Positions 27,686-40,512 of a stretch of DNA of 64,000 nt are shown here, one piece after another. Position 1 is the first letter of the stretch. The number at the start of each line of letters is the position of its first letter. The stretch is from Candidatus Enterosoma merdigallinarum. GTDB taxonomy: Bacteria > Bacillota_I > Bacilli_A > RFN20 > CAG-288. The notes below the pieces were generated by a model. The model was not told the DNA's origin. It ran no database searches and was given only the letters and a program-made list of their open reading frames with translations. The position numbers were made by a program, and so were the translations under genes. The DNA lies in contig DVNL01000007.1 of assembly GCA_018714385.1 (NCBI GenBank), positions 93,657 to 157,656 on the forward strand, in the 5' to 3' direction.

Positions 27686-27775
27686 GCCCATTTTGGGCTT
27701 CACCTTCAGTCCGCTAGGCGCGTCACATGCCCATGAATGAGGGGACAACACAATGAATTCCAAAGGAGAACAGCA
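27686..27775 (+). promoter_or_regulatory. About 90-nt 5' UTR of rplS; candidate L19 autoregulatory leader
   Basis: Long untranslated leader between the predicted TSS and the AAGGAG SD. An L19 leader element is known upstream of rplS in Bacilli, but I could not verify the consensus structure by eye. Confidence 0.3.
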
Positions 27776-28258
27776 ATGAACAAGAACTTGGTTCAGCAGA
27801 TCACTGCCACCCAGATCCGCCACGACATCCCGGACTTCGTCACCGGCGATACCGTCCGTGTCATGGTCACCATCCGTGAAGGAAACAAGGAGAGACAGCA
27901 GGCCTTCGAAGGCGTCGTCATCTCCATCCGCGGAACGGGCGTCAGCAAGACCTTTGTCGTCAGAAAGGATTCTGCCGGCATCGGCGTCGAAAGAAACTTC
28001 TTTGTCAACTCCCCCGTCCTGGCTTCCATCACCGTCCTCAAGCACGGCAAGGTCAGAAGAAAGAAGATCTTCTACCTGAGAGACAGGAGAGGCAAGGCCG
28101 CCCGTCTGGAAGAGGTCATCCGCAAGGACAAGATCGCCGCCAACTTGGCCGCGACCAAGACCAACGCCGACAAGAAGAAGGCCGCCAACAGGGAGAAGGC
28201 CAAGGCCGCCAAGGAAGCCAAGGCTTCCGAGCAGGCCGCTGCTGCCGAAAGCAAGTAA
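27776..28258 (+). CDS. rplS: 50S ribosomal protein L19 with about 45-aa Lys/Ala-rich C-terminal extension
   Basis: [36 protein letters not shown] is the canonical L19 core. AAGGAG upstream of ATG 27776. The tail is [44 protein letters not shown]. Confidence 0.95.
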
Positions 28259-28371: not shown

Positions 28372-30594
28372 ATGAAAAGAAAAATTTTCTTCCTTGTCTT
28401 CCTTCCTACCATGATTTTAATGGCTTCCTGTCAAGGAGAGGGATCTTCCCTTTCTTCTTCTTCTTCTTCTTCGTTGCCTCCATCTTCGACGGGAACAAGC
28501 CAGATAGCCCCGACAGTAGAAAGCTATGCCTTGGAAGTCTCCAGTCTTCCTTCCAAGACGACCTACAATCGCTATGACACCCTGGAACTTTCCGGCCTTG
28601 TCGTTCAGCTTGTCGGTCTGTCTAAAGAGGGAGAGGTCCTCAAGGCGGAAGCGTTCGACGACTACACGCTTTCCATGGATGCCGTTGAAGTCTCAGAAGG
28701 CTTCCTCTTGGCCACTTCGGGAATGAGAAAGACGATTACGGTTCTCTCGCAGAGCGAAGAATATCCGGGGCTGAGCACTTCCTTCACGATTCGAGTCAAT
28801 TCTCTCCAATCCATGAATCAGTGGCTGGAAATGGAGGGAGAGATTCCGACCTATTATTCTCTTGGCGACACCTTCTTACTGCCGGAGATCGCCTTCACTT
28901 TGAGGACGGAGAGAGTCGATATCGACGGAAACGTCCTCAAAAGCGAGACGCTCCTTTCCCTCGACGATCTTTCTTTCACGATCGATGGCGAGGATGCCGA
29001 AGGCTATTTCTTTGAAAATCCCGGACGTCATTCTTTCAAGGCGACAGTCGATGGACTGGAAGAAGAAATCGTTTTTGAAAGAACCATCTATTCGCTTGCA
29101 AAGGAAAATGCCGACCCTGATACATTTCCGGAAGAGGGAAAGCTGACTCCGGACGATTCAACGATGACCGTTCGTATCGTGCAAGACGAAGCGGATGCCA
29201 GTTTCGACAACTTCTACGCTCCGGAGGATGTCGTCATCGATTATGGCATCTACGAGTATGGAAAGAACGCCTATGACGAATGGGTCTATGCGCCGAGCAA
29301 GCCTCTGGAGGAAGCGACAGTGGCCAAAACACCGCTCTTGGTCGTCCCGGTCATTCTTCCGGGGGCGGAAAAGGAAGCCGACGAGTCGAAACGGGAACTC
29401 ATCCGGAAGACGTTCTTCGGCGCTTCCGGGGATCTCGCCTATGAGTCTCTTCACTCCTACTATTGGAAATCGTCCTTCGGGAAGCTGGACATCACCGGCA
29501 CTGTGACCGACTTCTTCTATGCCGGCGACATGAGCGACCTGCCTGCGACGGGATCTTTGACGCCTGCCCTTCTTTCCGACCTCGCCGAGGATGCCTGCGA
29601 ATGGGCAAAGACGGCCTACGACCTGGATTTCGACGATTACGACAGCGATGACGACGGCACCGTCGATGGCGTCTGGATGGTCTTCATCGGAAGGGAGAGC
29701 AACGACCTTTCCGGGTACTGGGGCCTTTCCGGGACCACCGGCTACAAAGGGACGAAAGAGGATCCTGCCGTCAACAACTATGGATTCATCGGCATGGACT
29801 TCATCGATGGCAGCTATTCTTCCGGCATGGACAAGGGAGGCGATGCCCATGTGGTCATCCACGAGACGGGACACATGCTCGGGCTGATGGATTACTACAG
29901 CTATGATGGCGACACCTACAGTCCACTCGGCGGTCTGGACGTCATGGACGGGGGAATCATGGATCACAATCCCTATTCCAAGATGCTCCTTGGATGGACC
30001 AAGCCGTACATCGTCTATGGCAATGCCGAGATCACGATCCCTTCCTGTCAGCAGGAGGATGCCCTTATCGTGATTCCTTACGAAGGGAAGACCTACGACG
30101 TCGATGCGGATGGAAAAGTCCATTTCAACCCGTTTGACGAATATCTCGTCCTGGATTATTACACGGATTCCAACTTCAATGCCGTCGGCTATGACTATGC
30201 CGGCGACTATCCGGTCCAAGGCGAGGGCGGAAGGCTTTACCACGTCGATTCCCGCCTTGCCTATCGTTCCGGAGCGGAATATCTTCTGTTCGAAAATCCC
30301 GATGACGCCCTCTCCTATGACGGCAAGGTCGCCAAGCTGATCACCAACTCCCGTACCTCCGAATATGGCGAGAGTGCCCTCGGTCTCAAGAATGCCGATG
30401 CCTTCGACGAAATCCGGTGGATCTCCAAGGATGGCGTCTATGTCGACTATGCCAAGGGAAAGCCCAACGAGGATGCGCTCTTCCTTCCCGGGGATATCTT
30501 CTCCCTTTCGGAATACGTCTCCCAGTTCGTCGACGGAAGCTTCGACAACGGGAAGGCATGCGATTATCGCTTCGAGATTCTCTCTATCGCCTGA
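28372..30594 (+). CDS. Lipoprotein: two Ig-like (Big_3-type) repeats + M6/InhA-like zinc metalloprotease domain (HExxH intact)
   Basis: Signal peptide with lipobox ILMAS|C and a poly-Ser linker. Ig-like repeats (YALEVSSLPSKTTYNRYDTLELSGLVVQLVG). Catalytic region HVVIHETGHMLGLMDYYSY ... GGLDVMDGGIMDHNPYSKMLLGW resembles the M6 family domain. Confidence 0.85.
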   Translation: MKRKIFFLVFLPTMILMASCQGEGSSLSSSSSSSLPPSSTGTSQIAPTVESYALEVSSLPSKTTYNRYDTLELSGLVVQLVGLSKEGEVLKAEAFDDYTLSMDAVEVSEGFLLATSGMRKTITVLSQSEEYPGLSTSFTIRVNSLQSMNQWLEMEGEIPTYYSLGDTFLLPEIAFTLRTERVDIDGNVLKSETLLSLDDLSFTIDGEDAEGYFFENPGRHSFKATVDGLEEEIVFERTIYSLAKENADPDTFPEEGKLTPDDSTMTVRIVQDEADASFDNFYAPEDVVIDYGIYEYGKNAYDEWVYAPSKPLEEATVAKTPLLVVPVILPGAEKEADESKRELIRKTFFGASGDLAYESLHSYYWKSSFGKLDITGTVTDFFYAGDMSDLPATGSLTPALLSDLAEDACEWAKTAYDLDFDDYDSDDDGTVDGVWMVFIGRESNDLSGYWGLSGTTGYKGTKEDPAVNNYGFIGMDFIDGSYSSGMDKGGDAHVVIHETGHMLGLMDYYSYDGDTYSPLGGLDVMDGGIMDHNPYSKMLLGWTKPYIVYGNAEITIPSCQQEDALIVIPYEGKTYDVDADGKVHFNPFDEYLVLDYYTDSNFNAVGYDYAGDYPVQGEGGRLYHVDSRLAYRSGAEYLLFENPDDALSYDGKVAKLITNSRTSEYGESALGLKNADAFDEIRWISKDGVYVDYAKGKPNEDALFLPGDIFSLSEYVSQFVDGSFDNGKACDYRFEILSIA
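28452..28472 (+). repeat. (TTC)7 trinucleotide microsatellite encoding a poly-Ser linker
   Basis: Read in frame as CTT (TCT)6 TCG = LSSSSSSS, immediately after the lipobox of the M6-like lipoprotein. Confidence 0.9.
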
Positions 30595-30600
30595 GAAAAA

Positions 30601-30627
30601 GGGTGCCATCGAAAGGGCACCCTTTTT
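30601..30627 (+). terminator. Terminator after the M6-like lipoprotein gene
   Basis: GGGTGCC atcgaaa GGGCACCC followed by TTTTT. Confidence 0.75.
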
Positions 30628-30635
30628 GATGCCGG

Positions 30636-30660
30636 AAAAAGGCCGACCCGAAGGCCGGCC
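30636..30660 (-). terminator. Terminator after lipoprotein paralogue A
   Basis: Minus strand GGCCGGCC ttcg GGTCGGCC followed by TTTTT. Confidence 0.65.
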
Positions 30661-30671
30661 ATATCGTCATT

Positions 30672-32204
30672 TCAGTTGCCTTGGAAGGCGTCCCAGGAGT
30701 CGAGGAAGTATTGAGGGAAGGTTGTGCTGTCGATGTCCTTGAGGGTGAAGGTGACGTGGTATTCGTCGCCGGAGACTCCGAAGCGGGCCTCGACCTTGTC
30801 GATCCGCCCGTCCTTGACAGTCAGGCTTAGGCCGTCGCCGTTTGTCTCCAGGGCTTCGGAGTTGACGCCGAGGAACCCGTTGTCGAAGTAGGAGCCGATG
30901 CTCTTGAAGAGCGAAGAATCCGGGGTGTAGACGCCGTTTTCCTCCGTGAACACGTTCGGGGAGACCTGGTCGAAGGAGGGGATGAGATCCTCCCAGGTGT
31001 CGATGACGTAGGGATAGCTGGAGGAGACGTAGATGACGGCCCAGTTCCATCCGAGTGTTCCGGAAAGATAGTTGTAGCCGAGCCATTTTCCGGCGAATTC
31101 GCCGCTCGTCTGCCTGGCGGCGACATAGTCGTAGTTATCGCCGGCTGTGTAAAGGGCGTCATCCTCGCCCTGATGGTAGAAGGCCAATCCCGCTTCGTTG
31201 TCGTAATAGGCGGTGGTGATGGTCTTTGTCTTTTTCGTCACGTTCTCGATCGTCTTGACGTAAGTGAAGTTCTTGGCATCCTTGAGGCAGTTCAACGCTG
31301 TCGCAAGATCCGGATTGTCGTTCGTGAGAGGGACGATGTGGGAAAGGACATTCTCGCCAAAGCGGCTGTAGGAGAGGCGAAGGGTGGAAGTGCGGGTGAA
31401 AGTCTCTCCGACGAGTTCGGGAGTGGTGAAGTCGACTGTCGCCACTTCGCCTTTCGAGTTGAGGTTGACGATGCAGTCGGTGACCCAGTTCACGGAAGTG
31501 GCCTTGTAGCACTCCGTCAGGAACTCCGCCTTGTCGAGAGCAAGATGGATGTTTCCGTCTTCTCCGTAATAAAGATCGTTCGCTGAGATGAAGTCCCAAG
31601 GGTTTCGGTAGTTGTTTTCGAAGACGATGGGGTCGTAGACGCCTGTCTCGGGATTGTATTCGGAAGGCAGGGATGTCGTGACCGAGTTGTCGATGTTGAG
31701 GACTTCGCTATAGGCTAAGCCCGTCTCGCTGTCCTCAAAGATCGTCAACGGCGTGATGTCGTAGACACGTGTGGCATTGGGATCGGGCTCGCCCGTTTCT
31801 TTGATGAGATCGGCGTTGGTGCGGGCGCCTTCCTCGTGATAGCCGCGCTCGATGGTGCCGTCTTCGAGCGTCTTGTAGCTGTAGGTGTAGTTGGCGTCGG
31901 TGCTGGTTTGCAAATCGGCAGTCAGGGGCGAATCGGGATGGAGGACCCGGACGGTGGAGGCGAGATTGACGATGTGGCTGTTGCGCTTCAGGCTGTTGAC
32001 CGCCGTGACGAACTCTTCTTCGGGCTCGGGTTCCGGCTCGATGGAGGGGGTAGAGGGAGCCGGCGTGGACGGGGACTGGGAGGAGGGCGTGTTAGAGGAG
32101 CCGGGGAGGGAAGAAGAAGGTTGAGAGGAAGAGTTGTTCTGGCAAGAGGCAATCAAGAGGAGGGAGGGCAGAAGAAGGAAAAGGGATTTCACTTTACTTT
32201 TCAT
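30672..32204 (-). CDS. Lipoprotein of unknown family (paralogue A of a tandem triplet)
   Basis: Lipobox LLLIAS|C and Ser/Pro-rich linker; 510 aa. Shares motifs with the two upstream genes (YRNPWDFISANDLY, NPDLATALNCLKDAKNFTY, SPNVFTEENGVYTPD). GGAG SD overlaps the stop of the preceding gene. Confidence 0.8.
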   Translation of the reverse strand: MKSKVKSLFLLLPSLLLIASCQNNSSSQPSSSLPGSSNTPSSQSPSTPAPSTPSIEPEPEPEEEFVTAVNSLKRNSHIVNLASTVRVLHPDSPLTADLQTSTDANYTYSYKTLEDGTIERGYHEEGARTNADLIKETGEPDPNATRVYDITPLTIFEDSETGLAYSEVLNIDNSVTTSLPSEYNPETGVYDPIVFENNYRNPWDFISANDLYYGEDGNIHLALDKAEFLTECYKATSVNWVTDCIVNLNSKGEVATVDFTTPELVGETFTRTSTLRLSYSRFGENVLSHIVPLTNDNPDLATALNCLKDAKNFTYVKTIENVTKKTKTITTAYYDNEAGLAFYHQGEDDALYTAGDNYDYVAARQTSGEFAGKWLGYNYLSGTLGWNWAVIYVSSSYPYVIDTWEDLIPSFDQVSPNVFTEENGVYTPDSSLFKSIGSYFDNGFLGVNSEALETNGDGLSLTVKDGRIDKVEARFGVSGDEYHVTFTLKDIDSTTFPQYFLDSWDAFQGN

Positions 32205-32216
32205 GTCGTTGTCTCC

Positions 32217-33491
32217 TTACAGGATGTCCAGGTCGATCCAGGCGGGGAGGGATGTCGTCCCGTAATCGGAGAAGCTGTCACGGAAGGTGACATTGTTCGC
32301 ACCGGCGATGACGCCGACGGCTTCCTGGACCTTGCCGTCGGAAAGGGTAACATATCCGCTGACGCCGTTTCCGCTTCCCATGCCGAAGGTGGACGGGATC
32401 ATGGCGCTGGCGCCATAGGCGGTCGCTTCGTCGATGAGGAGATAGAGTCCTTCTCTGTCTTCCTCGAAGAGGGCGGGAGAAATCGTGAACAAGCCATTGA
32501 GATATTGATCGACAGGGCTGACCCTGTTGATGCCTTCTTGGACGGGAAGGCCGTTTTCCATGCGGTAGACGGTGTAGATGCCGCCGGCTCCCGTACGATA
32601 GAGCCTATCATCGTTTTTTGGACCTTTGCTGCGGCTGTCGGCCTGGAAGTAGACAGCATCCTCGGTGACGAAGAGGCGGCTTTCTTTCTCCAGTCCGTTG
32701 GAGGAGAAACTGGCAGTGAAGTTGCTTCCGAAGCCTTCCAGGGCCGTTTTCAGGTCGGCGTTCTCGCGGGTGCTGGGGGAGAGGTGGTCGAATTCGGGAA
32801 TGTTTCTGTCGATTTCCACGACGACATCCATGGTCGAGACGATGTTGGCAAAGCCGCTATCGGTGGCAATGCCCATCTGCTTGTCGGCGATTTGGAATGT
32901 CATGCCGATGATTTCATCGCCATCCAGGACGAAGGAGGCGGAAAGGACATGACGATCGATTCCGGCCCATGTCTCAAGAAGGAAGGACGCTTTCTGGCTG
33001 TCCAGGGAGAGGTCTTCGCCGATATCGGAGACTTCGATGTAGTTGAAAGGATTGCGGAAGACGTCCGCATAGAGGATATCCATGCCAAGGGATCCGTAGG
33101 CGACGGTTCCGACGGTGTTGTCCGGAAGGAGGACTTCCTGGTAGGCTCCGTTGTTTTCGCCCCGGAAGTAGACTTCCGTGCGCGAGCCGATATATTCCCG
33201 GACGGCAGGAACGGATTTTCCCTCTTCGACGATATGGCCATAGTCTCGACGGAAGGAAGCGGAATAGCTTGTGTCGAGGAACTCATAGCCCTCGGGATAG
33301 ATGAGGGTCTCGGTATAGTTGCCCTGCACGCCATAGCCATCCTTCATCAAAGACAGAATCTGGGAAGGCGTCAATCCGGTCGCCGAGGCGCCGTTGGCCT
33401 TCTTGAGGAGCTCGGAGGTAGAGGCTCCTGCGCAGCCGGGAAGGGCGAGAAGGAGGGCGGGCAGGAGAAGGAACAGTTTATTCGTTTTCAT
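32217..33491 (-). CDS. Lipoprotein of unknown family (paralogue B)
   Basis: Start set to ATG 33491 (MKTNKLFLLLPALLLALPG|C). Motifs FRNPFNYIEVSDIG, NADLKTALEGFGSNFTA, SPALFEEDREGLYLLID and FSDYGTTSLP match paralogues A and C. Confidence 0.8.
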   Translation of the reverse strand: MKTNKLFLLLPALLLALPGCAGASTSELLKKANGASATGLTPSQILSLMKDGYGVQGNYTETLIYPEGYEFLDTSYSASFRRDYGHIVEEGKSVPAVREYIGSRTEVYFRGENNGAYQEVLLPDNTVGTVAYGSLGMDILYADVFRNPFNYIEVSDIGEDLSLDSQKASFLLETWAGIDRHVLSASFVLDGDEIIGMTFQIADKQMGIATDSGFANIVSTMDVVVEIDRNIPEFDHLSPSTRENADLKTALEGFGSNFTASFSSNGLEKESRLFVTEDAVYFQADSRSKGPKNDDRLYRTGAGGIYTVYRMENGLPVQEGINRVSPVDQYLNGLFTISPALFEEDREGLYLLIDEATAYGASAMIPSTFGMGSGNGVSGYVTLSDGKVQEAVGVIAGANNVTFRDSFSDYGTTSLPAWIDLDIL

Positions 33492-34980
33492 TTTGCACTC
33501 CAAAGATATTGAGGATGGCGATGTCGACCGCATCGGAAAGGGAATCGACCGTCCTCAAGTCGGTGGTTCCGAAGTCGGAGAAGGACGTTTGAGTGGTCTG
33601 AAGGGTGCCGGCCGTATCGAGATAGGTCAATTCGAAGGTGGGGTTCTCGGGTTTCGTGATATCGATGGTCAACGTCTTGAAGCCGAAGGTCAGGGCAACG
33701 CTGTCATCGACGTAGAACTGGGCGGAGATATGGGAGAGATAGTCGCCGACGCCGAGGATGGCCGTGAGGACCTCGATGGCAAATTCCCTGTTGTAGTGTT
33801 CGAAGGCGGAAAGGTCGAAACAATAGACACCTTCCTCCTCTTTTTCGAAGAATTCGGCGCTCAGTTGGGAAAGAGTCGGGATGGCCTGGGCGATGGAAGG
33901 ATAGAATTCGTTGCTGACCATGCCGAACTGGCCGGAGACCGGCGTGACGCCGACTGCCCAATAGCCGTAGGTGACTTGCTGGCTTTCGTCGCTTTGCCAG
34001 CCGTAGCCAAGGCCGGTGTAGACCGTCCCTGTCCCATCGTTGAGTCCGCCGAAGTCGGAGAGCATGAGGCCAAGGCCTTCTTCCATGTCGCCGGTGTAGG
34101 GGAGGTCGTAGTAATTGCGATAAATCGCCGGCAAACCGCTGTCGCCGGCTTCCGTCATGAGAACACGCTGGGTGAAGTTTCCGGAGCGGATGTTGTCGCC
34201 GAGGGTGTCGATGGCGTTTTGAAGGGCTTCTCTCTCCGAGGCAGGGAGGGTCGAGGCGATCGGGGCAAGACGCGGGATGGAAGGCAGGACCTCCAACGTG
34301 GCTTCGACGTGTTCCACGATGCCGCCATAGGCATCCGTCTTGACATGGTCGAAGGAAAGCGTTTCAGGAATTCCATTTTCATCAGCCGTGATGACGATAT
34401 CATCGGCATAGCTCGTAAGAGAATAAGAATCCCAAGTATAGGAGTCGTGCATGGGATAGAAGGCGTCAAGGCTTGTCGCCAAGATGGGTTCGCCATAGGC
34501 GCTCGGCAGGACACGATAGCCTTCTTCCGTCTCTTCAAGAGTGAAGAACTTGTCGATGTTGTCTTCGGTAAGGGCTTGGAAGGGGCTGCCGTAGGTGCTG
34601 TCGAAATCGATGAGCGTCGGTTCCGTCTTGCCGTCGTCCAAGGCCGTGGAGACGACATCGTTGTGGATGTTGAGCGTCTCTTCGATGGTATTGCCATCCT
34701 CATCACGGATATAGCTGTGTCTTTCGCCGATTCCGTTTCCGATGGCCGTCATCGTGTTCCTTGCCGTTTCCCCGACCTCATCGACGAGGCGGTATGTGGT
34801 GTCGCTATAGTTGCTGGTGATCTGGGCTTGGATGCGGACATCTCCGGAAAGGGAATCGAGGAGATTGTCGAGAACGACGGAATCGGCCTTTGGGGCCTTC
34901 TTGACAGGCGCAGTGGTGTCGAGCGTCTGGCATGCGGAAAGAAGGAGAACGGGAAGGACGAGCAATGCTTTCTTTTTCAT
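33478..34980 (-). CDS. Lipoprotein of unknown family (paralogue C)
   Basis: MKKKALLVLPVLLLSA|C lipobox. Motifs SAEFFEKEEEGVYCFD and FSDFGTTDLR are shared with B and A. The start ATG shares its A with the TGA of the upstream gene. Confidence 0.8.
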   Translation of the reverse strand: MKKKALLVLPVLLLSACQTLDTTAPVKKAPKADSVVLDNLLDSLSGDVRIQAQITSNYSDTTYRLVDEVGETARNTMTAIGNGIGERHSYIRDEDGNTIEETLNIHNDVVSTALDDGKTEPTLIDFDSTYGSPFQALTEDNIDKFFTLEETEEGYRVLPSAYGEPILATSLDAFYPMHDSYTWDSYSLTSYADDIVITADENGIPETLSFDHVKTDAYGGIVEHVEATLEVLPSIPRLAPIASTLPASEREALQNAIDTLGDNIRSGNFTQRVLMTEAGDSGLPAIYRNYYDLPYTGDMEEGLGLMLSDFGGLNDGTGTVYTGLGYGWQSDESQQVTYGYWAVGVTPVSGQFGMVSNEFYPSIAQAIPTLSQLSAEFFEKEEEGVYCFDLSAFEHYNREFAIEVLTAILGVGDYLSHISAQFYVDDSVALTFGFKTLTIDITKPENPTFELTYLDTAGTLQTTQTSFSDFGTTDLRTVDSLSDAVDIAILNIFGVQNENE

Positions 34981-36677
34981 CAGTTGGCCCTCCTGAGAGT
35001 AAGGACGGCGCTTCCGGAAGCCTCGTCGATGGACTTCACCGTGAAGGTGATGCCCAAGGCCGTGCCGCTGTCGAAGGCGAAATCCTTGTAGAAACCGGGG
35101 ACATCGCCTTGGTCGAAGGCATCCCCGGCGTGGAAGAGATCATCGTCGGAAAGGCTGACATTGAAATCCGTGATGTGACGGTTCATGCCTTTTTTGGAGA
35201 GGAGGGAGAGAAGAGGCTCCTTGTCCATGATGCCATACTCGCTAAGAGGGTTGACGGAAGAATTGGAGTGGCGATAGGCATAGCTGTATTTTTGCTGGCT
35301 CCCGTTTGCGGAGAGGTAGGTCGCCTCGTAGTCGGGCTCGCCGACATAGGGGACATACTGGTTCTCGCGGCCTCGGGCAAGGGTCGAATTGACCTCATAG
35401 ACGCGGATTCCGGCTTTGGAGAAGGTAGAACGGCCGTAGATGTAAGGCTCTTTGGCATCGGCCTGATTCAGGCCGGTAGGCGTATACAGGTCGACGAGAA
35501 GATATTCGCCATAGAGTCCGTCATCGGCATAGGAGAGGACGATCGGGCTTTCGGCGCTGACGGTGACATCGACGCCTTCGGCGGGAACGTTCTCGGGCGT
35601 GTAGACGCTGGGAGAGAGCCATCCCAATTGATATTTGCTGAAGGGGTTGTGGTCGCCGATATATCCGTCCATCCTATCGGTCATGGCAAGGGGGGCACGA
35701 TAGGTCTCGGTCGTGGAATTTCCCGTGAAGTCGTAATAGCTGTCCAGTCCCATCATGGCACCGACGAAATTGATGTAGAAGTGGGAATCCGGAATGAGAG
35801 GGATCTGCTCCAGTCCGTAGTGGATGATCGAGTAGTAGAGAGAGGCGAAGACGCTTGTCCAGGAGACGGAATTCACAGGGGCGGAGAGGGAGTCTTCAAA
35901 GAGAGAGGCGTCGGAGAGGAGAGCATCGTAGCTCGTGTCGCCCGTGGAAGAGATGCCGAACATCTGGTAGACGAGCAAAGAAAGCATCGGATTGACTAAG
36001 ACGATGCCGTCGATCTTTCCGTCGTCATCGCTGTCGAAATCGGCAGGATCATACGTCCTCGTCTCGTCGACGAAGAGATAGTCATAGACTTCGCTGGTGA
36101 CGCCGGAAAGGAATCCCGCCATCCCCTTGCTGCCGATCGTGGCGACGGCATCGTTGAGCGTCTCTTCGATTTCGACGACGGGAGTGGTGACACCGTCCAA
36201 GTGGAGATTGTATCCGCTCGATTCCTCATAGAATTCCTTGACGGAAGGGAAATCGGCGCCTTCTCCGAAGAAAGTGCCGTCGAGATTTTTGAGAAGCTGA
36301 TCATCGAAGACTTCACCGACGTCTTCCTGGTCGGAAAGCTGGACGGGAACGACCAGAAGATTGACATCGCCCAAAGAAGGCATGCCAGGCTTCCCTTGGG
36401 AAGCGTTGAGCCTGTTGAGGGCGCTTCTAGCCCCGATCGGATCTTTGACTTCCGGCTGTTTTGCGTCTTCCAAGGCGTCACTGCCCGGTGTCCAGGGTGT
36501 GCTGCTGGAAGAGGAGCTTCCCGGGGTGGAGGAACTGCTCACAGAGGAATTCGGCGTCGAAGGGGGCACGGTCGAAGTGCTGGAAGAGGGGCTGCTTTCC
36601 TGCCCTTGGCATCCGGCGAGAACCGCCAGACACAAAAGGAGAGAAGACAGTCCAATGGTTTTTTTCTTTTTTTCCAT
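34980..36677 (-). CDS. Lipoprotein: full-length paralogue of the M6-like protease with the HExxH motif destroyed (predicted pseudo-protease)
   Basis: Lipobox LAVLAG|C and Ser/Thr/Pro linker. Collinear with 28372-30594 (LLVVPVQLSD / LLVVPVILPG; DSDDDGKIDGIVLV / DSDDDGTVDGVWMV), but reads HFYINFVGAMMGLDSYYDF where the paralogue has HVVIHETGHMLGLMDYYSY. Start taken at ATG 36677 (MEKKKK, GGAG 5 nt upstream); the ORF-track start at 36692 is a TTG. Confidence 0.8.
   Translation of the reverse strand: MEKKKKTIGLSSLLLCLAVLAGCQGQESSPSSSTSTVPPSTPNSSVSSSSTPGSSSSSSTPWTPGSDALEDAKQPEVKDPIGARSALNRLNASQGKPGMPSLGDVNLLVVPVQLSDQEDVGEVFDDQLLKNLDGTFFGEGADFPSVKEFYEESSGYNLHLDGVTTPVVEIEETLNDAVATIGSKGMAGFLSGVTSEVYDYLFVDETRTYDPADFDSDDDGKIDGIVLVNPMLSLLVYQMFGISSTGDTSYDALLSDASLFEDSLSAPVNSVSWTSVFASLYYSIIHYGLEQIPLIPDSHFYINFVGAMMGLDSYYDFTGNSTTETYRAPLAMTDRMDGYIGDHNPFSKYQLGWLSPSVYTPENVPAEGVDVTVSAESPIVLSYADDGLYGEYLLVDLYTPTGLNQADAKEPYIYGRSTFSKAGIRVYEVNSTLARGRENQYVPYVGEPDYEATYLSANGSQQKYSYAYRHSNSSVNPLSEYGIMDKEPLLSLLSKKGMNRHITDFNVSLSDDDLFHAGDAFDQGDVPGFYKDFAFDSGTALGITFTVKSIDEASGSAVLTLRRAN
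36659..36673 (-). repeat. A7-G-A7 homopolymer pair directly after the start codon of the pseudo-protease lipoprotein gene
   Basis: Minus strand reads ATG G AAAAAAA G AAAAAAA CC (MEKKKKT). The plus strand shows T7 c T7 at 36659-36673. Confidence 0.9.
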
Positions 36678-36794
36678 AGAGTCTCCATTCAAAAAAGTTC
36701 GCGCCGATTATACAAGAAAGGGCAGAAAAAGGAAAAATAATAATTAAGGTTAGGGCCAAATGTCATGATGTAAGCGGTTATCCCGAGAGAATTG

Positions 36795-36823
36795 TAGACT
36801 TGATATTATCAATACACTATAAT
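36795..36823 (+). promoter_or_regulatory. Promoter of the Big_2 lipoprotein gene
   Basis: TAGACT (36795-36800), 17-nt spacer, TATAAT (36818-36823). Confidence 0.45.
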
Positions 36824-36852
36824 CCCGCTATCAGACTTTTAGGAGGAAACTC

Positions 36853-38436
36853 ATGAAAAAGATTCATAGAATCGCTTCTCTTGCCCTGCTTCTTTCCGGC
36901 ATCGGATTGGCTTCTTGCGGGAACGGCGCCTCTTCGTCTTCCGCCACACCAACGCCTGCCCCTTCCACGCCTGCTTCCAGCTCGTCTTCGCCGTCCACTC
37001 CTGCGCCCTCAAGTCCTTCTTCCCCCTCTTCTCCATCCTCCCCTTCGTCTCCCTCTTCCTCGACCCCGGAACCGGATCCGGGTCCGACTGTTCAGGAGCA
37101 GTTTGCCGACTTTGCCGATTATATCGTGACGGACGTTCTCTCCAAGGACATCCTGGAAGTCACGTTTTCCGAGACGAACACGCAAGACGGAATCAACAAC
37201 AGGGTTCGCACGAGCAAATTCGGTGTCGATGAGATCTATACGACGGTCGAAACAAAAGACGACAATTATCAATACGCCTCGATTCGAGATGGTGTCTATT
37301 ACACTGCAACGCTGTCCAATTCTGAAAGAAACGTTAGCAGACAAAAGATCTCGACTTCGACAGGAGCTGACACGATCACTCAGGAAGTCGCTGAGAACAC
37401 CTTGAATGCATACATGCAAATCGGATCGCTTGAAGGATCGGGCGTGTTCGATGTCTTCTATGGCGAAGAGGTCATTGCCGACACCTTCTCCGATGAGACG
37501 GATGGCGGTGTCCGCACGGTCACCATCGGCGCCTATGACGAATCCGGCGATGGTTTCAATTATTCCTATACGGCCATATTGGAACTTAACGAGGATGACG
37601 AGATTCTTTCTCTCACGTCCAGCACCCAGTGGGCTTTCGATGATTATTGGGACGATGCCACGCATAGTCCGATCGCCGGAAGCAAAGAGGCCTATAGTTC
37701 GCTTGTCGTCATCGAAGAAGGAGACATCGTCTTCGGCACTTATGATCCCGAGGCCCCCCTACTTTACGATTTCTCCGGCGATTTCATCACCAGCGTGGAA
37801 GCCTACGTCACGGCAGAAAGCACTGACATGGGCGGCGGATCTACCGGTGAAAGGAATGTTCTCCAGGTCGGAGATTATCCTTTGGTCCATGTTGAGTCTT
37901 ACCTTCCTGTCACGGCGATGGAAGACACTTCCAGCGTCGTGATCCTTTCTTCCAGCGACACGGGAGTCATCGGATACGATGACTTTGGCTCCTTCTATGC
38001 CAAAGGCATCGGCCATGCCACGTTGACTGTCGGCAATATCTTCAACGCGAACCTCGGCACGATCGAGGTCGAGGTCGTCGAGGCGTCCTCCGTCGACACG
38101 AACCCGCCGTCGATCGGATTCACCATTACGGGCGATGGGTATGAGGACGTTTATGATCAGAGCAATCCGGATCTGTGGGGACGTTTCACCATCAGTCTTG
38201 CCAATGGCCCTGTTGTCTTCCGGGCCGACACGATGACACCGCCTCCCTTCGACATCGAGGGTGACGAGATTTCGTCTCAAAATGCCGGCATTGCCACGGC
38301 GGTGTTCCAGAATCCGACCGATACCACGGGGATGTTCGTCGACATTGTCATCACTCCGGTCTCTGTCGGAAAGACCATCATCACGATTCCGTCAGCGATG
38401 GGTTCACATCAGTACGAAGTCGTCGTTGAAGCCTAA
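36853..38436 (+). CDS. Lipoprotein with long Ser/Pro linker and two Big_2-like Ig domains
   Basis: Lipobox GIGLAS|C. Linker SSSSATPTPAPSTPASSSSSPSTPAPSSPSSPSSPSSPSSPSSSTPEPDPGP. C-terminal Ig-like modules (SSSDTGVIGYDDFGSFYAKGIGHATLTVGN; GIATAVFQN...VSVGKTIITIP). AGGAGG SD, and a strong terminator downstream. Confidence 0.8.
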   Translation: MKKIHRIASLALLLSGIGLASCGNGASSSSATPTPAPSTPASSSSSPSTPAPSSPSSPSSPSSPSSPSSSTPEPDPGPTVQEQFADFADYIVTDVLSKDILEVTFSETNTQDGINNRVRTSKFGVDEIYTTVETKDDNYQYASIRDGVYYTATLSNSERNVSRQKISTSTGADTITQEVAENTLNAYMQIGSLEGSGVFDVFYGEEVIADTFSDETDGGVRTVTIGAYDESGDGFNYSYTAILELNEDDEILSLTSSTQWAFDDYWDDATHSPIAGSKEAYSSLVVIEEGDIVFGTYDPEAPLLYDFSGDFITSVEAYVTAESTDMGGGSTGERNVLQVGDYPLVHVESYLPVTAMEDTSSVVILSSSDTGVIGYDDFGSFYAKGIGHATLTVGNIFNANLGTIEVEVVEASSVDTNPPSIGFTITGDGYEDVYDQSNPDLWGRFTISLANGPVVFRADTMTPPPFDIEGDEISSQNAGIATAVFQNPTDTTGMFVDIVITPVSVGKTIITIPSAMGSHQYEVVVEA

Positions 38437-38559: not shown

Positions 38560-38856
38560 ATGGTCAAAATCAGACTTGCCAGAATCGGAAGAAAGGCTCT
38601 TCCTTCCTACAGAATCGTTGTCAGCGATTCCAGAAAGACCCCTCGTTCCGACAATCTCGCCGACCTCGGCTATTTCGATCCCAAGACCCACAACTTCAAC
38701 ATCGACGAAGAAGAGGCCCTCAAGTGGCTCAACCACGGTGCCATCCCCTCGGATTCCGTCAAGACTCTTCTGACGAAGAAGGGCATCTACAAGAAGTTCG
38801 TCGACGCCAAGATCGCTGCCAGGAAGGCCGCCAAGGCTAACAGCGAGGCGAAGTAA
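38560..38856 (+). CDS. rpsP: 30S ribosomal protein S16 (short Lys/Ala-rich tail)
   Basis: MVKIRLARIGRKALPSYRIVV start is canonical S16. GGAGG lies upstream. Confidence 0.95.
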   Translation: MVKIRLARIGRKALPSYRIVVSDSRKTPRSDNLADLGYFDPKTHNFNIDEEEALKWLNHGAIPSDSVKTLLTKKGIYKKFVDAKIAARKAAKANSEAK

Positions 38857-38858
38857 GA

Positions 38859-39176
38859 ATGAACACAGGAACTGATATCGATCTCACCCAAGATATCCGC
38901 TCCCTCGTCGAACCCCTTGTCAGCAATCCCGAGAAGGTCATCATCCAGAGAATGGACAAGCCCGAATATCGGACGCGCAGGGAACAGAACTATCTCATCC
39001 TTTGCGAGAAGGACGACTTGGGGAAGCTGATCGGACGTCATGGAGTCATTTCCGACTCCCTCAGGACCATCCTCAATGTTTCTATCAAGAACATGAGGAA
39101 GAAGGTCCATCTGCGCTTTGAGTCCTATAGCGACTACAAGGCCAGCCATCCGGATTTCGTCCCGGAGCAGGAATAA
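38859..39176 (+). CDS. khpA: KH-domain RNA-binding protein KhpA (YlqC/UPF0109)
   Basis: KH motif DDLGKLIGRHGVISDSLRTIL. Conserved position between rpsP and rimM. Confidence 0.85.
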   Translation: MNTGTDIDLTQDIRSLVEPLVSNPEKVIIQRMDKPEYRTRREQNYLILCEKDDLGKLIGRHGVISDSLRTILNVSIKNMRKKVHLRFESYSDYKASHPDFVPEQE

Positions 39177-39232
39177 CAGATGCGGAAGGGGGAGCCAAGC
39201 TCCCTCTTTCCTTTCGGAAAGGAAAAAAGACA

Positions 39233-39730
39233 ATGGCAATCAAGAACATCGGAAAAATCGTCAATACCTTCGGAATCAAGGGACAACTCAAGATTTCCAT
39301 CTCCACCTCGACACCGGAGACGCGATTTGCTGTAGGAAAGAAAATCCTCATCGATGATGAGACCGGGATCGAGAAGGAATACGTCATCTCCTCTTTCCGG
39401 ATGAAGGGAGACAGGATTGCCATCATCGGACTGGAAGGCTATGACGACATCAACGACATCGAATGGATGGTCGGCAGGATCGTCAAGGAAAACGTCCGGG
39501 CCCCGAAGGGGACTTTCTTCTACGACGACCTCGTCGGCATGGACATCGTCGACCATGAAGGGAACGTCTATGGAAAGGTCGAGACCGTCAACAAGATGCC
39601 GGCCGGCGACTATCTCGTCTCCGGAAAGTCCTATATCCCCTTCAAGGAGGGCATCTTCATCGAGTCCGTCGACAAGAAGGAGAAGAAGATCGTCCTGACG
39701 GCGCTTGGAAGCGAGGTTCTCGCGAGGTGA
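39233..39730 (+). CDS. rimM: 16S rRNA processing protein RimM
   Basis: IGKIVNTFGIKGQLKI N-terminal barrel and a PRC barrel (FYDDLVGMDIVDHEGNVYGKV). Confidence 0.9.
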   Translation: MAIKNIGKIVNTFGIKGQLKISISTSTPETRFAVGKKILIDDETGIEKEYVISSFRMKGDRIAIIGLEGYDDINDIEWMVGRIVKENVRAPKGTFFYDDLVGMDIVDHEGNVYGKVETVNKMPAGDYLVSGKSYIPFKEGIFIESVDKKEKKIVLTALGSEVLAR

Positions 39731-40512
39731 AAATCACCATATTGACGATCTTTCCGGACTTCTTCGACAAGTTTCTGGACTCCTCCATCGTCAAAAGAGC
39801 GATCGCCAAGGGCGTGGTCTCTTTCGAGATCGTCAATATCCGCGATTATTCCCTGGACAAAAACCATCGGGTGGACGATCATCCTTTCGGAGGCGGAGCA
39901 GGGCTTGTCATGCGGTTGGAACCCCTTGTCGGTGCCTTGAGAGCCCATTCTGGGAAAGACACCCACAAGATCTTTCTGGGGCCGAGAGGCAAGAGATATT
40001 CCCAGGAGGATGCCATCCGTCTGAGCTGGAAAGAGGACATTCTTTTGGTCTGCGGCCATTACGAAGGTGTCGACTCCCGTTTTCTGGACTATGTCGACGA
40101 GGAGATCTCCCTCGGCGACTTCGTCTTGACGGGAGGGGAAATCGCGGCAATGGCCGTTGCCGACAGCGTCACGAGGCTTCTCAAGGGAGCCATCAGCGAG
40201 GAGTCGACCAAAGAGGAGTCCTTCGACGGCTCGCTTCTGGAATACGATCAATACACCTATCCTGTCGAGTTCGAGGGGAAAAAGGTTCCGGATATTCTCT
40301 TCTGCGGAAACCATGAGGCCGTCAAGGAATATCGAAGGAAGGAAAGCCTTCGAATCACATATGAAAAAAGAAGGGACCTTTTCGACAGGGCCCCTTACGA
40401 TAGGAAAGACTACGAATATCTCCAGGAACTGAAGAAAGGGAAAAAGACTTTGTCCCGCCGCGAGAAAGACGCCTTGGAAAAAGGAAAACGCTTCGTCCCG
40501 GAGTCGGAGTGA
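39727..40512 (+). CDS. trmD: tRNA (guanine37-N1)-methyltransferase
   Basis: ILTIFPDFFD, DDHPFGGGAGLVM and a GRYEG-like CGHYEGVD. The GTG start at 39727 overlaps the rimM TGA. Confidence 0.95.
   Translation: MKITILTIFPDFFDKFLDSSIVKRAIAKGVVSFEIVNIRDYSLDKNHRVDDHPFGGGAGLVMRLEPLVGALRAHSGKDTHKIFLGPRGKRYSQEDAIRLSWKEDILLVCGHYEGVDSRFLDYVDEEISLGDFVLTGGEIAAMAVADSVTRLLKGAISEESTKEESFDGSLLEYDQYTYPVEFEGKKVPDILFCGNHEAVKEYRRKESLRITYEKRRDLFDRAPYDRKDYEYLQELKKGKKTLSRREKDALEKGKRFVPESE

What the first reader, a model, noticed from the sequence alone, without database searches (positions are those of the whole stretch)
34980..36677. Full-length M6-like paralogue with HExxH replaced by NFVGA: predicted pseudo-protease lipoprotein
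The two M6-like lipoproteins align along their whole catalytic and C-terminal regions. In each pair below, the first string is 28372-30594 and the second is 34980-36677:
- LLVVPVILPG / LLVVPVQLSD
- DSDDDGTVDGVWMV / DSDDDGKIDGIVLV
- GGIMDHNPYSKMLLGWTKP / GYIGDHNPFSKYQLGWLSP
- DEYLVLDYYT / GEYLLVDLYT
- GGRLYHVDSRLA / AGIRVYEVNSTLA

At the zinc site, however, HVVIHETGHMLGLMDYYSY becomes HFYINFVGAMMGLDSYYDF. Both His ligands and the catalytic Glu are lost while the surrounding scaffold is kept. Retention of a 565-aa intact ORF heading a four-gene operon argues for a non-catalytic role such as regulator, decoy or substrate receptor, rather than decay.
Basis: seen in the sequence. Interest (0 to 1): 0.6.

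Follow-up and report, generated by a model that had tools for sequence, protein, structure and literature searches.

The report
Dead M6-like protease lipoprotein operon
A surface lipoprotein that keeps the fold of a zinc protease but has lost its whole zinc site is kept under purifying selection in a group of uncultured, probably wall-less gut bacteria. It is always the first gene of a four-gene operon with three related lipoproteins that look like lipid carriers, so it most likely works as a non-catalytic binding subunit.

Summary
The ORF at 34980-36677 (minus strand, 565 aa, lipobox LAGC) is a homologue of the active M6-like lipoprotein at 28372-30594. BLASTP, three multiple alignments and a profile-profile alignment (probability 100%, E 7e-87) all place NFVGAMMGLDS under HETGHMLGLMD, so both His ligands, the catalytic Glu and the third ligand Asp are gone. 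The AlphaFold model (pLDDT 86.5) best matches InhA2, the solved M6 peptidase.

It is not decaying:
- The dead proteins form one clade (SH-aLRT 100), with about 29 clusters at 50% identity in a 1.84-billion-protein library. All lack HExxH and all have a lipobox.
- Twelve strain-level copies have no stop or frameshift, and their dN/dS is 0.11.
- The clade has about 27 invariant residues of its own.

In all 10 genomes with flanking DNA it heads the same tightly packed operon with three paralogous lipoproteins. A model of one of them shows two LolA/LprG-like half-barrels. Dead M6 and this partner occur together in 10 of 61 related genomes and are absent together from the other 51. The genome has no detectable PBP, MurA or ketoacyl synthase.

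Best reading: a non-catalytic binding or scaffold subunit of a surface lipoprotein module, possibly for scavenging lipid or lipoprotein. It is a new variant of a known kind (a pseudopeptidase), of moderate interest.

The parts
34980..36677 (-). Dead M6-like (thuringilysin-fold) lipoprotein, 565 aa. It has a signal peptide with lipobox LAGC, a Ser/Pro/Thr-rich linker, then the M6-like body.
   Evidence: The RBS GGAG (36686-36683) lies 5 nt before the ATG at 36677.
35739..35771 (-). Degenerate zinc site NFVGAMMGLDS, in place of HExxHxxGxxD. In 565-aa numbering: His1 to N303, Glu to F304, His2 to A307, Asp to S313.
33478..34980 (-). Operon gene 2: lipoprotein of 500 aa (lipobox LSAC), a member of the tandem LolA/LprG-like family. 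Its start overlaps the stop of the dead M6 gene by 1 nt.
32217..33491 (-). Operon gene 3: lipoprotein of 424 aa (lipobox LPGC), a paralogue of genes 2 and 4. It overlaps gene 2 by 14 nt.
30672..32204 (-). Operon gene 4: lipoprotein of 510 aa (lipobox IASC). The AF2 model shows two tandem beta half-barrels that match LolA, LprG and ependymin-related folds.
36702..36766 (-). Promoter-like region of the operon: ATGACA-18-TATTAT at 36766-36737, and a perfect TATAAT at 36712-36707.
   Evidence: These are consensus matches only.
30641..30660 (-). Terminator-like GC-rich hairpin followed by a T-run, directly after gene 4 and shared with the convergent active M6 gene.
28372..30594 (+). Active M6-like lipoprotein paralogue of 740 aa (HETGHMLGLMD), convergent with the operon. 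It is the immediate neighbour of the cassette in 5 of 10 related loci.
36853..38436 (+). Divergently transcribed lipoprotein of 527 aa with no family hit. A homologue sits in the same position in 6 of 10 related loci.

Best explanation
The gene encodes a membrane-anchored pseudopeptidase: an M6/InhA-like metzincin-fold lipoprotein that cannot bind the catalytic zinc or activate water. It lost both His ligands, the general-base Glu and the Asp third ligand, and also a His (YHVD) that is invariant in the active relatives. The loss happened once, in the ancestor of a clade of uncultured, small-genome gut Bacilli that probably lack a cell wall. The protein was then kept under purifying selection and acquired its own set of invariant residues. 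It is co-transcribed, and probably translationally coupled, with three paralogous lipoproteins. The one that was modelled is built of two LolA/LprG-like half-barrels, a fold that carries hydrophobic ligands. Inferred mechanism: the four proteins work together on the cell surface. The dead protease scaffold acts as a non-catalytic binding or docking subunit for a polypeptide ligand or for its partners, and the three LolA/LprG-like proteins hold or pass on hydrophobic cargo. A plausible purpose is scavenging of lipid or lipoprotein by an organism with no detectable fatty-acid synthase. What is shown: homology, loss of the site, monophyly, purifying selection, operon conservation and co-occurrence. 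What is inferred: physical interaction, the ligand and the link to lipid.
For: - Site loss and column assignment. No alternative metal motif exists.
- Fold: the AF2 model has pLDDT 86.5 and pTM 0.85. Its top PDB matches are InhA2 4YU6/4YU5 (E about 1e-9, probability 1.0), followed by ADAM and adamalysin catalytic domains.
- Definition of the metzincin motif HExxHxxG/NxxH/D, with Asp as third ligand in thuringilysins: PMC12237041.
- Single origin: 26 dead sequences form one clade (SH-aLRT 100, stem of 1.16 substitutions per site, one change of state).
- Clade size: the top 29 full-length representatives in the 50%-identity library all lack HExxH and all have a lipobox. Below a clear score gap, every hit has HExxH.
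- Selection: among 12 strain copies (5 haplotypes) there are no stops or frameshifts, and dN/dS is 0.107, against 0.11-0.16 for the operon partners. Between species, dN/dS is 0.25-0.26 at dS 0.66-0.99.
- Change of constraint: 11 positions conserved in at least 85% of 36 active relatives are not conserved in the dead clade, while 27 positions are conserved in the dead clade only, among them D316, R327 and N499-R500.
- Operon: the same four genes in the same order, with overlapping or near-abutting junctions, occur in 10 of 10 loci. Promoter-like and terminator-like sites bracket it.
- Partners: genes 2-4 are mutually homologous (hhalign probability 98-100%). The model of gene 4 has pLDDT 90 and matches LolA, LprG and ependymin-related proteins at probability 1.0 and TM 0.4-0.48 per domain.
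- Phyletic coupling: the dead M6 and the gene-4 orthologue are present together in exactly 10 of 61 related genomes and absent together from 51.
- Host biology: no PBP transpeptidase, MurA or ketoacyl synthase was found in the 88.5%-complete genome, while the control genomes were positive.
Against: - There is no direct evidence of expression, of zinc absence, of physical interaction among the four proteins, or of any ligand.
- The LolA/LprG similarity has modest TM scores (0.4-0.48 per domain), and no sequence family model matches the partners.
- The genome is a MAG at 88.5% completeness, so the absence of wall and fatty-acid genes is probable rather than proven.
- An active M6 paralogue sits next to the cassette in the 5 closest loci. 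Distant genomes also pair active M6 genes with members of the LolA-like family. A protease-directed role is therefore not excluded.
- Between-species dN/dS of 0.3-0.45 rests on saturated dS and is uninformative.
Confidence: 0.6

Rival explanations
1. The dead M6 is a regulator, cofactor or decoy for the active M6-like lipoproteins. Five of these are present in this genome and one lies next door. It could act by heterodimerising with them, presenting substrate to them, or soaking up host inhibitors or antibodies aimed at them.
For: An active M6 paralogue lies immediately beside the cassette in the window and in the 4 closest loci, so 5 of 10 in all. The genome carries 5 active paralogues. Pseudopeptidases often regulate their active cousins (review PMC11266112). 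The active and dead proteins share the whole scaffold, including the DHNPxSK..LGW block and the Met-turn Met.
Against: The 5 more distant cassette loci have no active M6 gene within the sequence held, whereas linkage to the three LolA-like genes holds in 10 of 10 loci and co-occurrence is 61 of 61. The orientation of the active gene relative to the cassette also varies: convergent in the window and L010, co-directional in L009, L015 and L033.
Confidence: 0.2
2. It is mainly a variable surface-coat or antigen protein. The protease fold serves only as a stable exposed scaffold for immune evasion or adhesion, with no specific partnership with the downstream genes.
For: It is a lipoprotein with a Ser/Pro-rich linker on a probably wall-less cell. 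It diverges quickly between species, with 38-57% identity within one GTDB genus. The distribution is patchy, in 9 of 36 same-genus genomes besides the window's own. Two A7 tracts follow the start codon.
Against: Strain-level dN/dS is 0.11, with no sign of diversifying selection. The A7 tracts and the reading frame are identical in 7 of 7 aligned copies, and all 12 copies keep an intact frame. There are 27 clade-specific invariant residues. Order and co-occurrence with the three partners are strictly conserved.
Confidence: 0.1
3. It is a pseudogene or a decaying duplicate, kept open by chance or by polar requirements of the downstream genes.
For: All catalytic residues are lost.
Against: The ORF is intact in every one of 13 genomes and 12 strain copies. 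The clade is deep, with 29 clusters at 50% identity. dN/dS is 0.11. The AF2 model is confident. The clade has gained invariant residues of its own.
Confidence: 0.02
4. It is still a hydrolase that uses a different catalytic apparatus.
For: Asp297 of the D-S-H triplet just before the active-site helix is conserved in both clades (D302 in 570-aa numbering). A few clade members keep a Glu or a single His in the helix, for example KEVGR and HEVGA.
Against: No metal-binding motif remains. The former ligand positions vary freely within the clade (N/T/R/S/K, variable, S/R/Q/T/K/A), which is not what a working site would show. The His of the D-S-H triplet is not kept throughout the clade.
Confidence: 0.05

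Closest known systems
Immune inhibitor A / thuringilysins (MEROPS M6; InhA2 structures 4YU5, 4YU6)
   Same: It is the best structural match of the model. Active relatives carry the same extended motif HExxHxxGxxD with Asp as third ligand (PMC12237041). There is a sub-threshold TIGR03296 match, and one clade member has a precomputed PF05547 hit.
   Different: The zinc site and general base are absent. The protein is lipid-anchored rather than secreted, and about 200 residues shorter than InhA2. Sequence identity is only 11-12% in the structural alignment, and the protein falls below curated HMM cut-offs.
Degenerate LytM (M23) factors EnvC and NlpD of Gram-negative bacteria (from my own knowledge, not tested here)
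   Same: These are bacterial envelope proteins, and NlpD is a lipoprotein. They keep a metallopeptidase fold but have lost the zinc ligands, and they act through protein-protein contacts using the former substrate groove.
   Different: The fold and clan differ (M23 against metzincin). Their known partners are cell-wall amidases, which this organism probably lacks. They have no operon with LolA-like proteins.
Catalytically dead ADAMs (M12 pseudopeptidases such as ADAM11/22/23) and other pseudometallopeptidases reviewed in PMC11266112
   Same: They have a metzincin fold, have lost HExxH, are retained under selection, and act as surface receptors or scaffolds.
   Different: They are eukaryotic multidomain transmembrane proteins. 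The review does not mention M6 or immune inhibitor A at all.
LolA / LprG / ependymin-related hydrophobic-ligand carriers (for operon genes 2-4)
   Same: The modelled partner shares the unclosed beta half-barrel fold of these carriers (probability 1.0, TM 0.4-0.48 per domain). LprG is also a lipoprotein.
   Different: Here there are two such domains in tandem per protein and three paralogues in a row. No sequence-family match was found, and cargo binding is untested.

Membership tests
MEROPS M6 / thuringilysin metallopeptidases | Zinc-binding consensus HExxHxxGxxD (two His, catalytic Glu, Asp third ligand) | tested here: not met
   NFVGAMMGLDS occupies these columns, and there is no HExxH anywhere in the protein. 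It is therefore not an M6 peptidase in the functional sense.
MEROPS M6 / thuringilysin metallopeptidases | Catalytic-domain fold like InhA | tested here: met
   Foldseek's top four PDB hits are InhA2 chains (E 8.5e-10 to 1e-8, probability 1.0). The global TM is only 0.40-0.42, because InhA2 is larger. The model has pLDDT 86.5.
MEROPS M6 / thuringilysin metallopeptidases | Match to curated family HMMs (TIGR03296, PF05547) above cut-off | tested here: not met
   TIGR03296 scores 28.7 bits against a cut-off of 110.8, covering residues 130-228 only. Pfam gives no hit at E below 0.1. The active paralogue is also below the cut-off at 82.2 bits, so the whole lineage is a distant branch.
MEROPS M6 / thuringilysin metallopeptidases | Met-turn methionine downstream of the zinc motif | tested here: inconclusive
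   One Met of the D-M-M-D block (M341 in 570-aa numbering) is conserved in both the dead and the active clade, and the other is lost. That this Met is the Met-turn residue is inferred from its position, not checked in the structure.
Pseudoenzyme (pseudopeptidase) | Clear homology to an enzyme family, with catalytic residues missing | tested here: met
   hhalign gives probability 100% and E 7e-87 against the active clade. Four catalytic or ligand positions are invariant in 36 active relatives and are replaced in the dead clade.
Pseudoenzyme (pseudopeptidase) | Retained under purifying selection rather than decaying | tested here: met
   dN/dS is 0.107 among strains and 0.25-0.26 between species at unsaturated dS. 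Frames are intact in all copies, and the clade is monophyletic and deep.
Pseudoenzyme (pseudopeptidase) | Demonstrated lack of activity and a demonstrated non-catalytic function | not testable with these tools
   This needs protein biochemistry.
Bacterial lipoprotein | Signal peptide ending in a lipobox with an invariant Cys | tested here: met
   The N-terminus reads MEKKKKTIGLSSLLLCLAVLAGC. A lipobox is present in all 29 clade representatives. Lgt and Lsp were not searched for.
LolA/LprG-like carriers (operon partners) | Unclosed beta-barrel with a hydrophobic cavity that binds acyl chains | tested here: inconclusive
   The fold match has probability 1.0 but TM of only 0.4-0.48. The cavity and ligand were not examined, and there is no HMM match.

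The most novel reading that the evidence does not exclude
The four lipoproteins form a previously undescribed surface machine of wall-less, fatty-acid-auxotrophic gut bacteria. In it, a dead protease has been re-purposed as the receptor that captures a host, dietary or microbial lipoprotein or protein-lipid particle. The three tandem LolA/LprG-like paralogues then extract its lipids and relay them to the membrane. This would be a lipid-acquisition route unrelated to the known mycoplasma systems.
Probability: 0.2. Interest if true: 0.75.

Novelty: new variant of a known kind. Interest (0 to 1): 0.45.

Why it matters
Pseudoenzymes are common, but well-supported bacterial pseudo-metzincins are few. 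The 2024 review of inactive metallopeptidase homologues does not mention M6 at all. This case combines four things:
- one ancient loss of the catalytic site;
- clear purifying selection;
- a fixed operon partnership with an unannotated family of tandem LolA/LprG-like lipoproteins;
- perfect co-occurrence of the dead protease with the operon's fourth gene, the one partner whose distribution was tested.

That gives a concrete, testable four-protein module in a lineage of uncultured, reduced-genome gut bacteria whose surface biology and nutrient acquisition are essentially unknown. If the lipid link holds, it would show how such organisms obtain membrane lipids. It also warns annotators that 'M6 family metalloprotease-like' labels in these genomes cover both active and inactive proteins.

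Tried and rejected
- **Phase variation or N-terminal truncation.** The 90%-identity cluster holds many 467-aa 'members' that start at the internal Met99. I fetched six of their contigs. The DNA upstream is collinear with the window, with the same ATG, the same A7-G-A7 tract and the same lipobox, and it translates without a stop. The short forms are therefore gene-caller start choices, not frameshift variants. Consensus assemblies cannot exclude minority length variants.
- **HExxH elsewhere or an alternative metal site.** None was found.
- **Solved relatives by sequence.** phmmer against the PDB gave nothing meaningful for either paralogue. Only the fold search found InhA2.
- **Pfam and NCBIfam for the three partner lipoproteins and the divergent lipoprotein.** No hits.
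- **TbpB-like reading of the partners.** The Foldseek E-values are good, but TM is about 0.1 and rmsd about 26 A. I treat this as local beta-rich similarity only.
- **Between-species dN/dS beyond about 55% identity.** dS is saturated or undefined, so I did not use it.
- **Word-based homologue search for gene 4.** It returned only 9 proteins. The alignment for its structure prediction was built mainly from the syntenic loci instead.
Full report
**1. What is at the coordinates**

The window has an open frame on the minus strand from 36692 (TTG) or 36677 (ATG) down to 34980. It begins MEKKKKTIGLSSLLLCLAVLAGC, a signal peptide with a lipobox. A Ser/Pro/Thr-rich linker of about 45 residues follows, then a body of about 500 residues. 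The comparison protein at 28372-30594 (+) is a 740-aa lipoprotein with HETGHMLGLMD. All six peptide pairs quoted in the finding are present in the two translations.

**2. Is the alignment right?**

- BLASTP gives E 5e-17 and puts DSHFYINFVGAMMGLDSYYDF under DAHVVIHETGHMLGLMDYYSY.
- Three independent multiple alignments give the same columns.
- A profile-profile alignment of 21 dead-clade sequences against 17 active relatives does too (probability 100%, E 7e-87, 437 columns).
- Window 35739-35771 (minus) translates to NFVGAMMGLDS.

Metzincins carry HExxHxxG/NxxH/D, and the third ligand is Asp in thuringilysins (M6) and snapalysins (PMC12237041). Against that motif the protein has lost His1 (N303), Glu (F304), His2 (A307) and the Asp (S313), in 565-aa numbering. 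No HExxH, HxxEH, HxxH or CxxC occurs anywhere in the protein.

**3. Is it M6-like?**

By sequence models, only weakly. TIGR03296 (M6 domain) scores 28.7 bits for the dead protein and 82.2 bits for the active paralogue, both under the 110.8-bit cut-off, and Pfam gives nothing. By fold, yes. The AlphaFold2 model built on a 31-sequence alignment has pLDDT 86.5 and pTM 0.85. Its four best PDB matches are chains of the Bacillus anthracis InhA2 zymogen (4YU6, 4YU5; E 8.5e-10 to 1e-8, probability 1.0). ADAM and snake-venom adamalysin catalytic domains come next. The whole lineage is thus a distant branch of the M6/thuringilysin metzincins.

**4. One old loss, then retention**

A word-indexed search found 23 full-length relatives at 38-57% identity. 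None of them has HExxH, whereas more distant hits (24-30% identity) do. From related genomes I extracted 12 further orthologues. All are open and all lack the motif. The former ligand positions vary freely:
- His1 position: N/T/R/S/K
- Glu position: variable
- His2 position: S/R/Q/T/K/A
- Asp position: mostly S/T/Y

A maximum-likelihood tree of 26 dead and 15 active sequences puts all dead ones on one side of a branch, with SH-aLRT 100, a stem of 1.16 substitutions per site and a single change of state.

A full HMMER scan of 1.84 billion 50%-identity representatives with the dead-clade profile found 3049 relatives, 1010 of them at E 1e-30 or better. The top 29 full-length hits (337-752 bits) all lack HExxH and all carry a lipobox. 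After a clear score gap (261 bits and below), all hits checked have HExxH. The window's own genome has five active paralogues and this single dead one.

**5. Selection**

The 90%-identity cluster around the window's protein gave 11 further copies from independent metagenomes. With the window that makes 12 copies and 5 haplotypes.
- No stop or frameshift occurs in any copy.
- There are 25 synonymous-only against 9 amino-acid-changing segregating codons.
- Mean pairwise dN/dS is 0.107, like the three downstream genes at 0.11-0.16.
- The window compared with one strain shows 15 synonymous and 2 non-synonymous changes, a ratio of 0.04.
- Between species, where dS is still below 1, dN/dS is 0.25-0.26. 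More distant pairs are saturated.

I also compared column conservation in 26 dead and 36 active sequences. Eleven positions that are conserved in at least 85% of the active proteins are not conserved in the dead clade. They include the four site residues, the first Met of the D-M-M-D block, and the His of Y-H-V-D (mostly Lys in the dead clade, Glu in the window's protein). Conversely, 27 positions are invariant or nearly so only in the dead clade, for example D316, R327, Y466, G482 and N499-R500. That pattern fits a change of function, not decay.

**6. Context**

Downstream on the same strand lie three more lipoprotein genes: 33478-34980, 32217-33491 and 30672-32204. The junctions are a 1-nt overlap, a 14-nt overlap and a 12-nt gap. 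A promoter-like site and a perfect TATAAT lie upstream of the first gene. The only strong terminator-like hairpin on this strand follows the fourth gene.

The three downstream proteins have no Pfam or NCBIfam hit, but they are homologous to one another (hhalign probability 98-100%). A model of the last one (pLDDT 90, pTM 0.78) shows two tandem beta half-barrels. Each matches LolA, LprG and ependymin-related proteins at probability 1.0 and TM 0.4-0.48. Whole-protein matches to TbpB have TM of about 0.1, and I discount them.

In all 10 loci with enough flanking DNA, the order dead M6, gene 2, gene 3, gene 4 is kept, with tight junctions. A homologue of the divergent upstream lipoprotein (36853-38436) is present in 6 of 10 loci. 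An active M6 gene follows the cassette in 5 of 10, in either orientation.

Among 61 related genomes, the dead M6 and the gene-4 orthologue are present in exactly the same 10 (the window's own plus 9 of 36 in the same genus). Both are absent from the other 51, including all 24 genomes from other families of the order. The hit in G008 is an active HETGH protein.

Elsewhere, larger members of the LolA-like family sit between active M6 genes in two distant MAGs. In this genome a weak family member lies next to another active M6 gene. This hints at an older functional link between the two families.

**7. The organism**

Titles of the related records call it an uncultured Bacilli/Firmicutes bacterium from animal gut and faecal metagenomes. 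The assembly is 1.38 Mb and 88.5% complete. Searches for PBP transpeptidase (PF00905), MurA (TIGR01072) and ketoacyl synthase (PF00109) found nothing, although each family was found above its cut-off in at least 10 of the 14 control genomes. The organism is therefore probably wall-less and unable to make fatty acids. Lipoproteins would then be directly exposed on its surface, and it would need lipids from outside.

**8. Interpretation**

Shown:
- a catalytically dead M6-fold lipoprotein;
- a single ancient origin;
- purifying selection;
- a conserved operon with three tandem LolA/LprG-like paralogues, and co-inheritance with the one whose distribution was tested.

Inferred:
- it is a non-catalytic binding or scaffold subunit of a four-lipoprotein surface module;
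- the partners carry hydrophobic cargo;
- the purpose may be lipid or lipoprotein scavenging.

I give the overall statement a confidence of 0.6 and the specific lipid-scavenging machine 0.2. The main rival (0.2) is a regulator or decoy for the active M6 paralogues. It is favoured by adjacency in the closest genomes and weakened by the looser conservation of that adjacency. A pure surface-coat role (0.1), residual non-canonical hydrolysis (0.05) and pseudogene decay (0.02) are less likely, for the reasons listed under each rival.

**9. Comparison with known systems, and novelty**

It works like other pseudopeptidases that keep a protease scaffold for binding: dead ADAMs, and the degenerate LytM factors EnvC and NlpD (the latter from my own knowledge). 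It is a structural relative of InhA, but it fails the defining motif and the curated HMM cut-offs of M6. I therefore file it as an M6-derived pseudopeptidase, not as an M6 peptidase. The 2024 review of inactive metallopeptidase homologues does not mention M6 or immune inhibitor A. I rate it a new variant of a known kind, with interest 0.45. It is solid and gives a testable module in an obscure lineage, but loss of catalysis with retention is a familiar theme and the function remains inferred.

**10. Limits**

- No complex prediction was possible.
- Gene absences rest on an incomplete MAG.

Noticed in passing
window 36400-36677 (minus); loci L044-L049: Many database 'members' of this protein are 467 aa and start at the internal Met99, with a spurious 44-aa ORF called upstream. 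The DNA of six such contigs has the full 565-codon frame intact, so these are gene-caller artefacts. The same probably applies to the 457-aa P0013.
   Followed up: yes
window 36659-36673 (minus): Two A7 tracts (ATG G A7 G A7 CC) sit right after the start codon. They are identical in all 7 aligned copies, and all 12 strain copies keep an intact frame. Consensus assemblies therefore show no sign of slippage, but minority variants could not be checked.
   Followed up: partly
whole genome G000: No match was found to PBP transpeptidase (PF00905), MurA (TIGR01072) or ketoacyl synthase (PF00109) in the 1.38-Mb, 88.5%-complete assembly. The organism is probably a wall-less, fatty-acid-auxotrophic, Mollicutes-like gut bacterium that uses the standard code (long ORFs under table 11).
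   Followed up: partly
G000 C4:70496-72901, C5:85424-87730, C13:181507-183819, C12:32103-33761, and window 28372-30594: There are five active M6-like lipoprotein paralogues (HETGH..GLxDYY) in a 1.4-Mb genome. Four are 740-800 aa with long N-terminal extensions and one is 553 aa. That is a large investment in surface metalloproteases.
   Followed up: partly
G000 C13:9891-11345 and C4:16528-17922; also C4:68530-70485: Two further confident members of the tandem LolA/LprG-like lipoprotein family lie outside the operon. A weak 652-aa hit sits divergently next to an active M6 gene.
   Followed up: no
L022:10028-12184 and L031:5379-7640: In two distant gut MAGs, a 719-754-aa member of the LolA-like family lies between two active M6-like genes. 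The link between the two families may therefore predate the dead clade.
   Followed up: no
P0015 (457 aa, 1399-bp contig): This is a chimeric protein: an unrelated N-terminal half fused to the last roughly 220 residues of the dead M6 at 92% identity. It is probably a misassembly on a short contig.
   Followed up: no
window 27737-28258, 38560-40512: The lipoprotein island (28372-38436) lies between rplS and an inverted rpsP-khpA-rimM-trmD block. The same arrangement is seen in strain contigs L050-L053, so it is stable within the species.
   Followed up: partly
window 28372-30594 versus L050-L053: The active M6 neighbour is called at 725, 738, 716 (cut by the locus end) and 740 aa in different strains. 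This is start-site or N-terminal length variation that I did not resolve.
   Followed up: no
G013:C3:36722-38233: The genome search reported one TAA inside the gene-4 orthologue match of this genome. ORF extraction from the same contig (L033:7544-9064) nevertheless gave an intact 506-aa frame. The stop probably lies in the read-through N-terminal extension of the match.
   Followed up: partly
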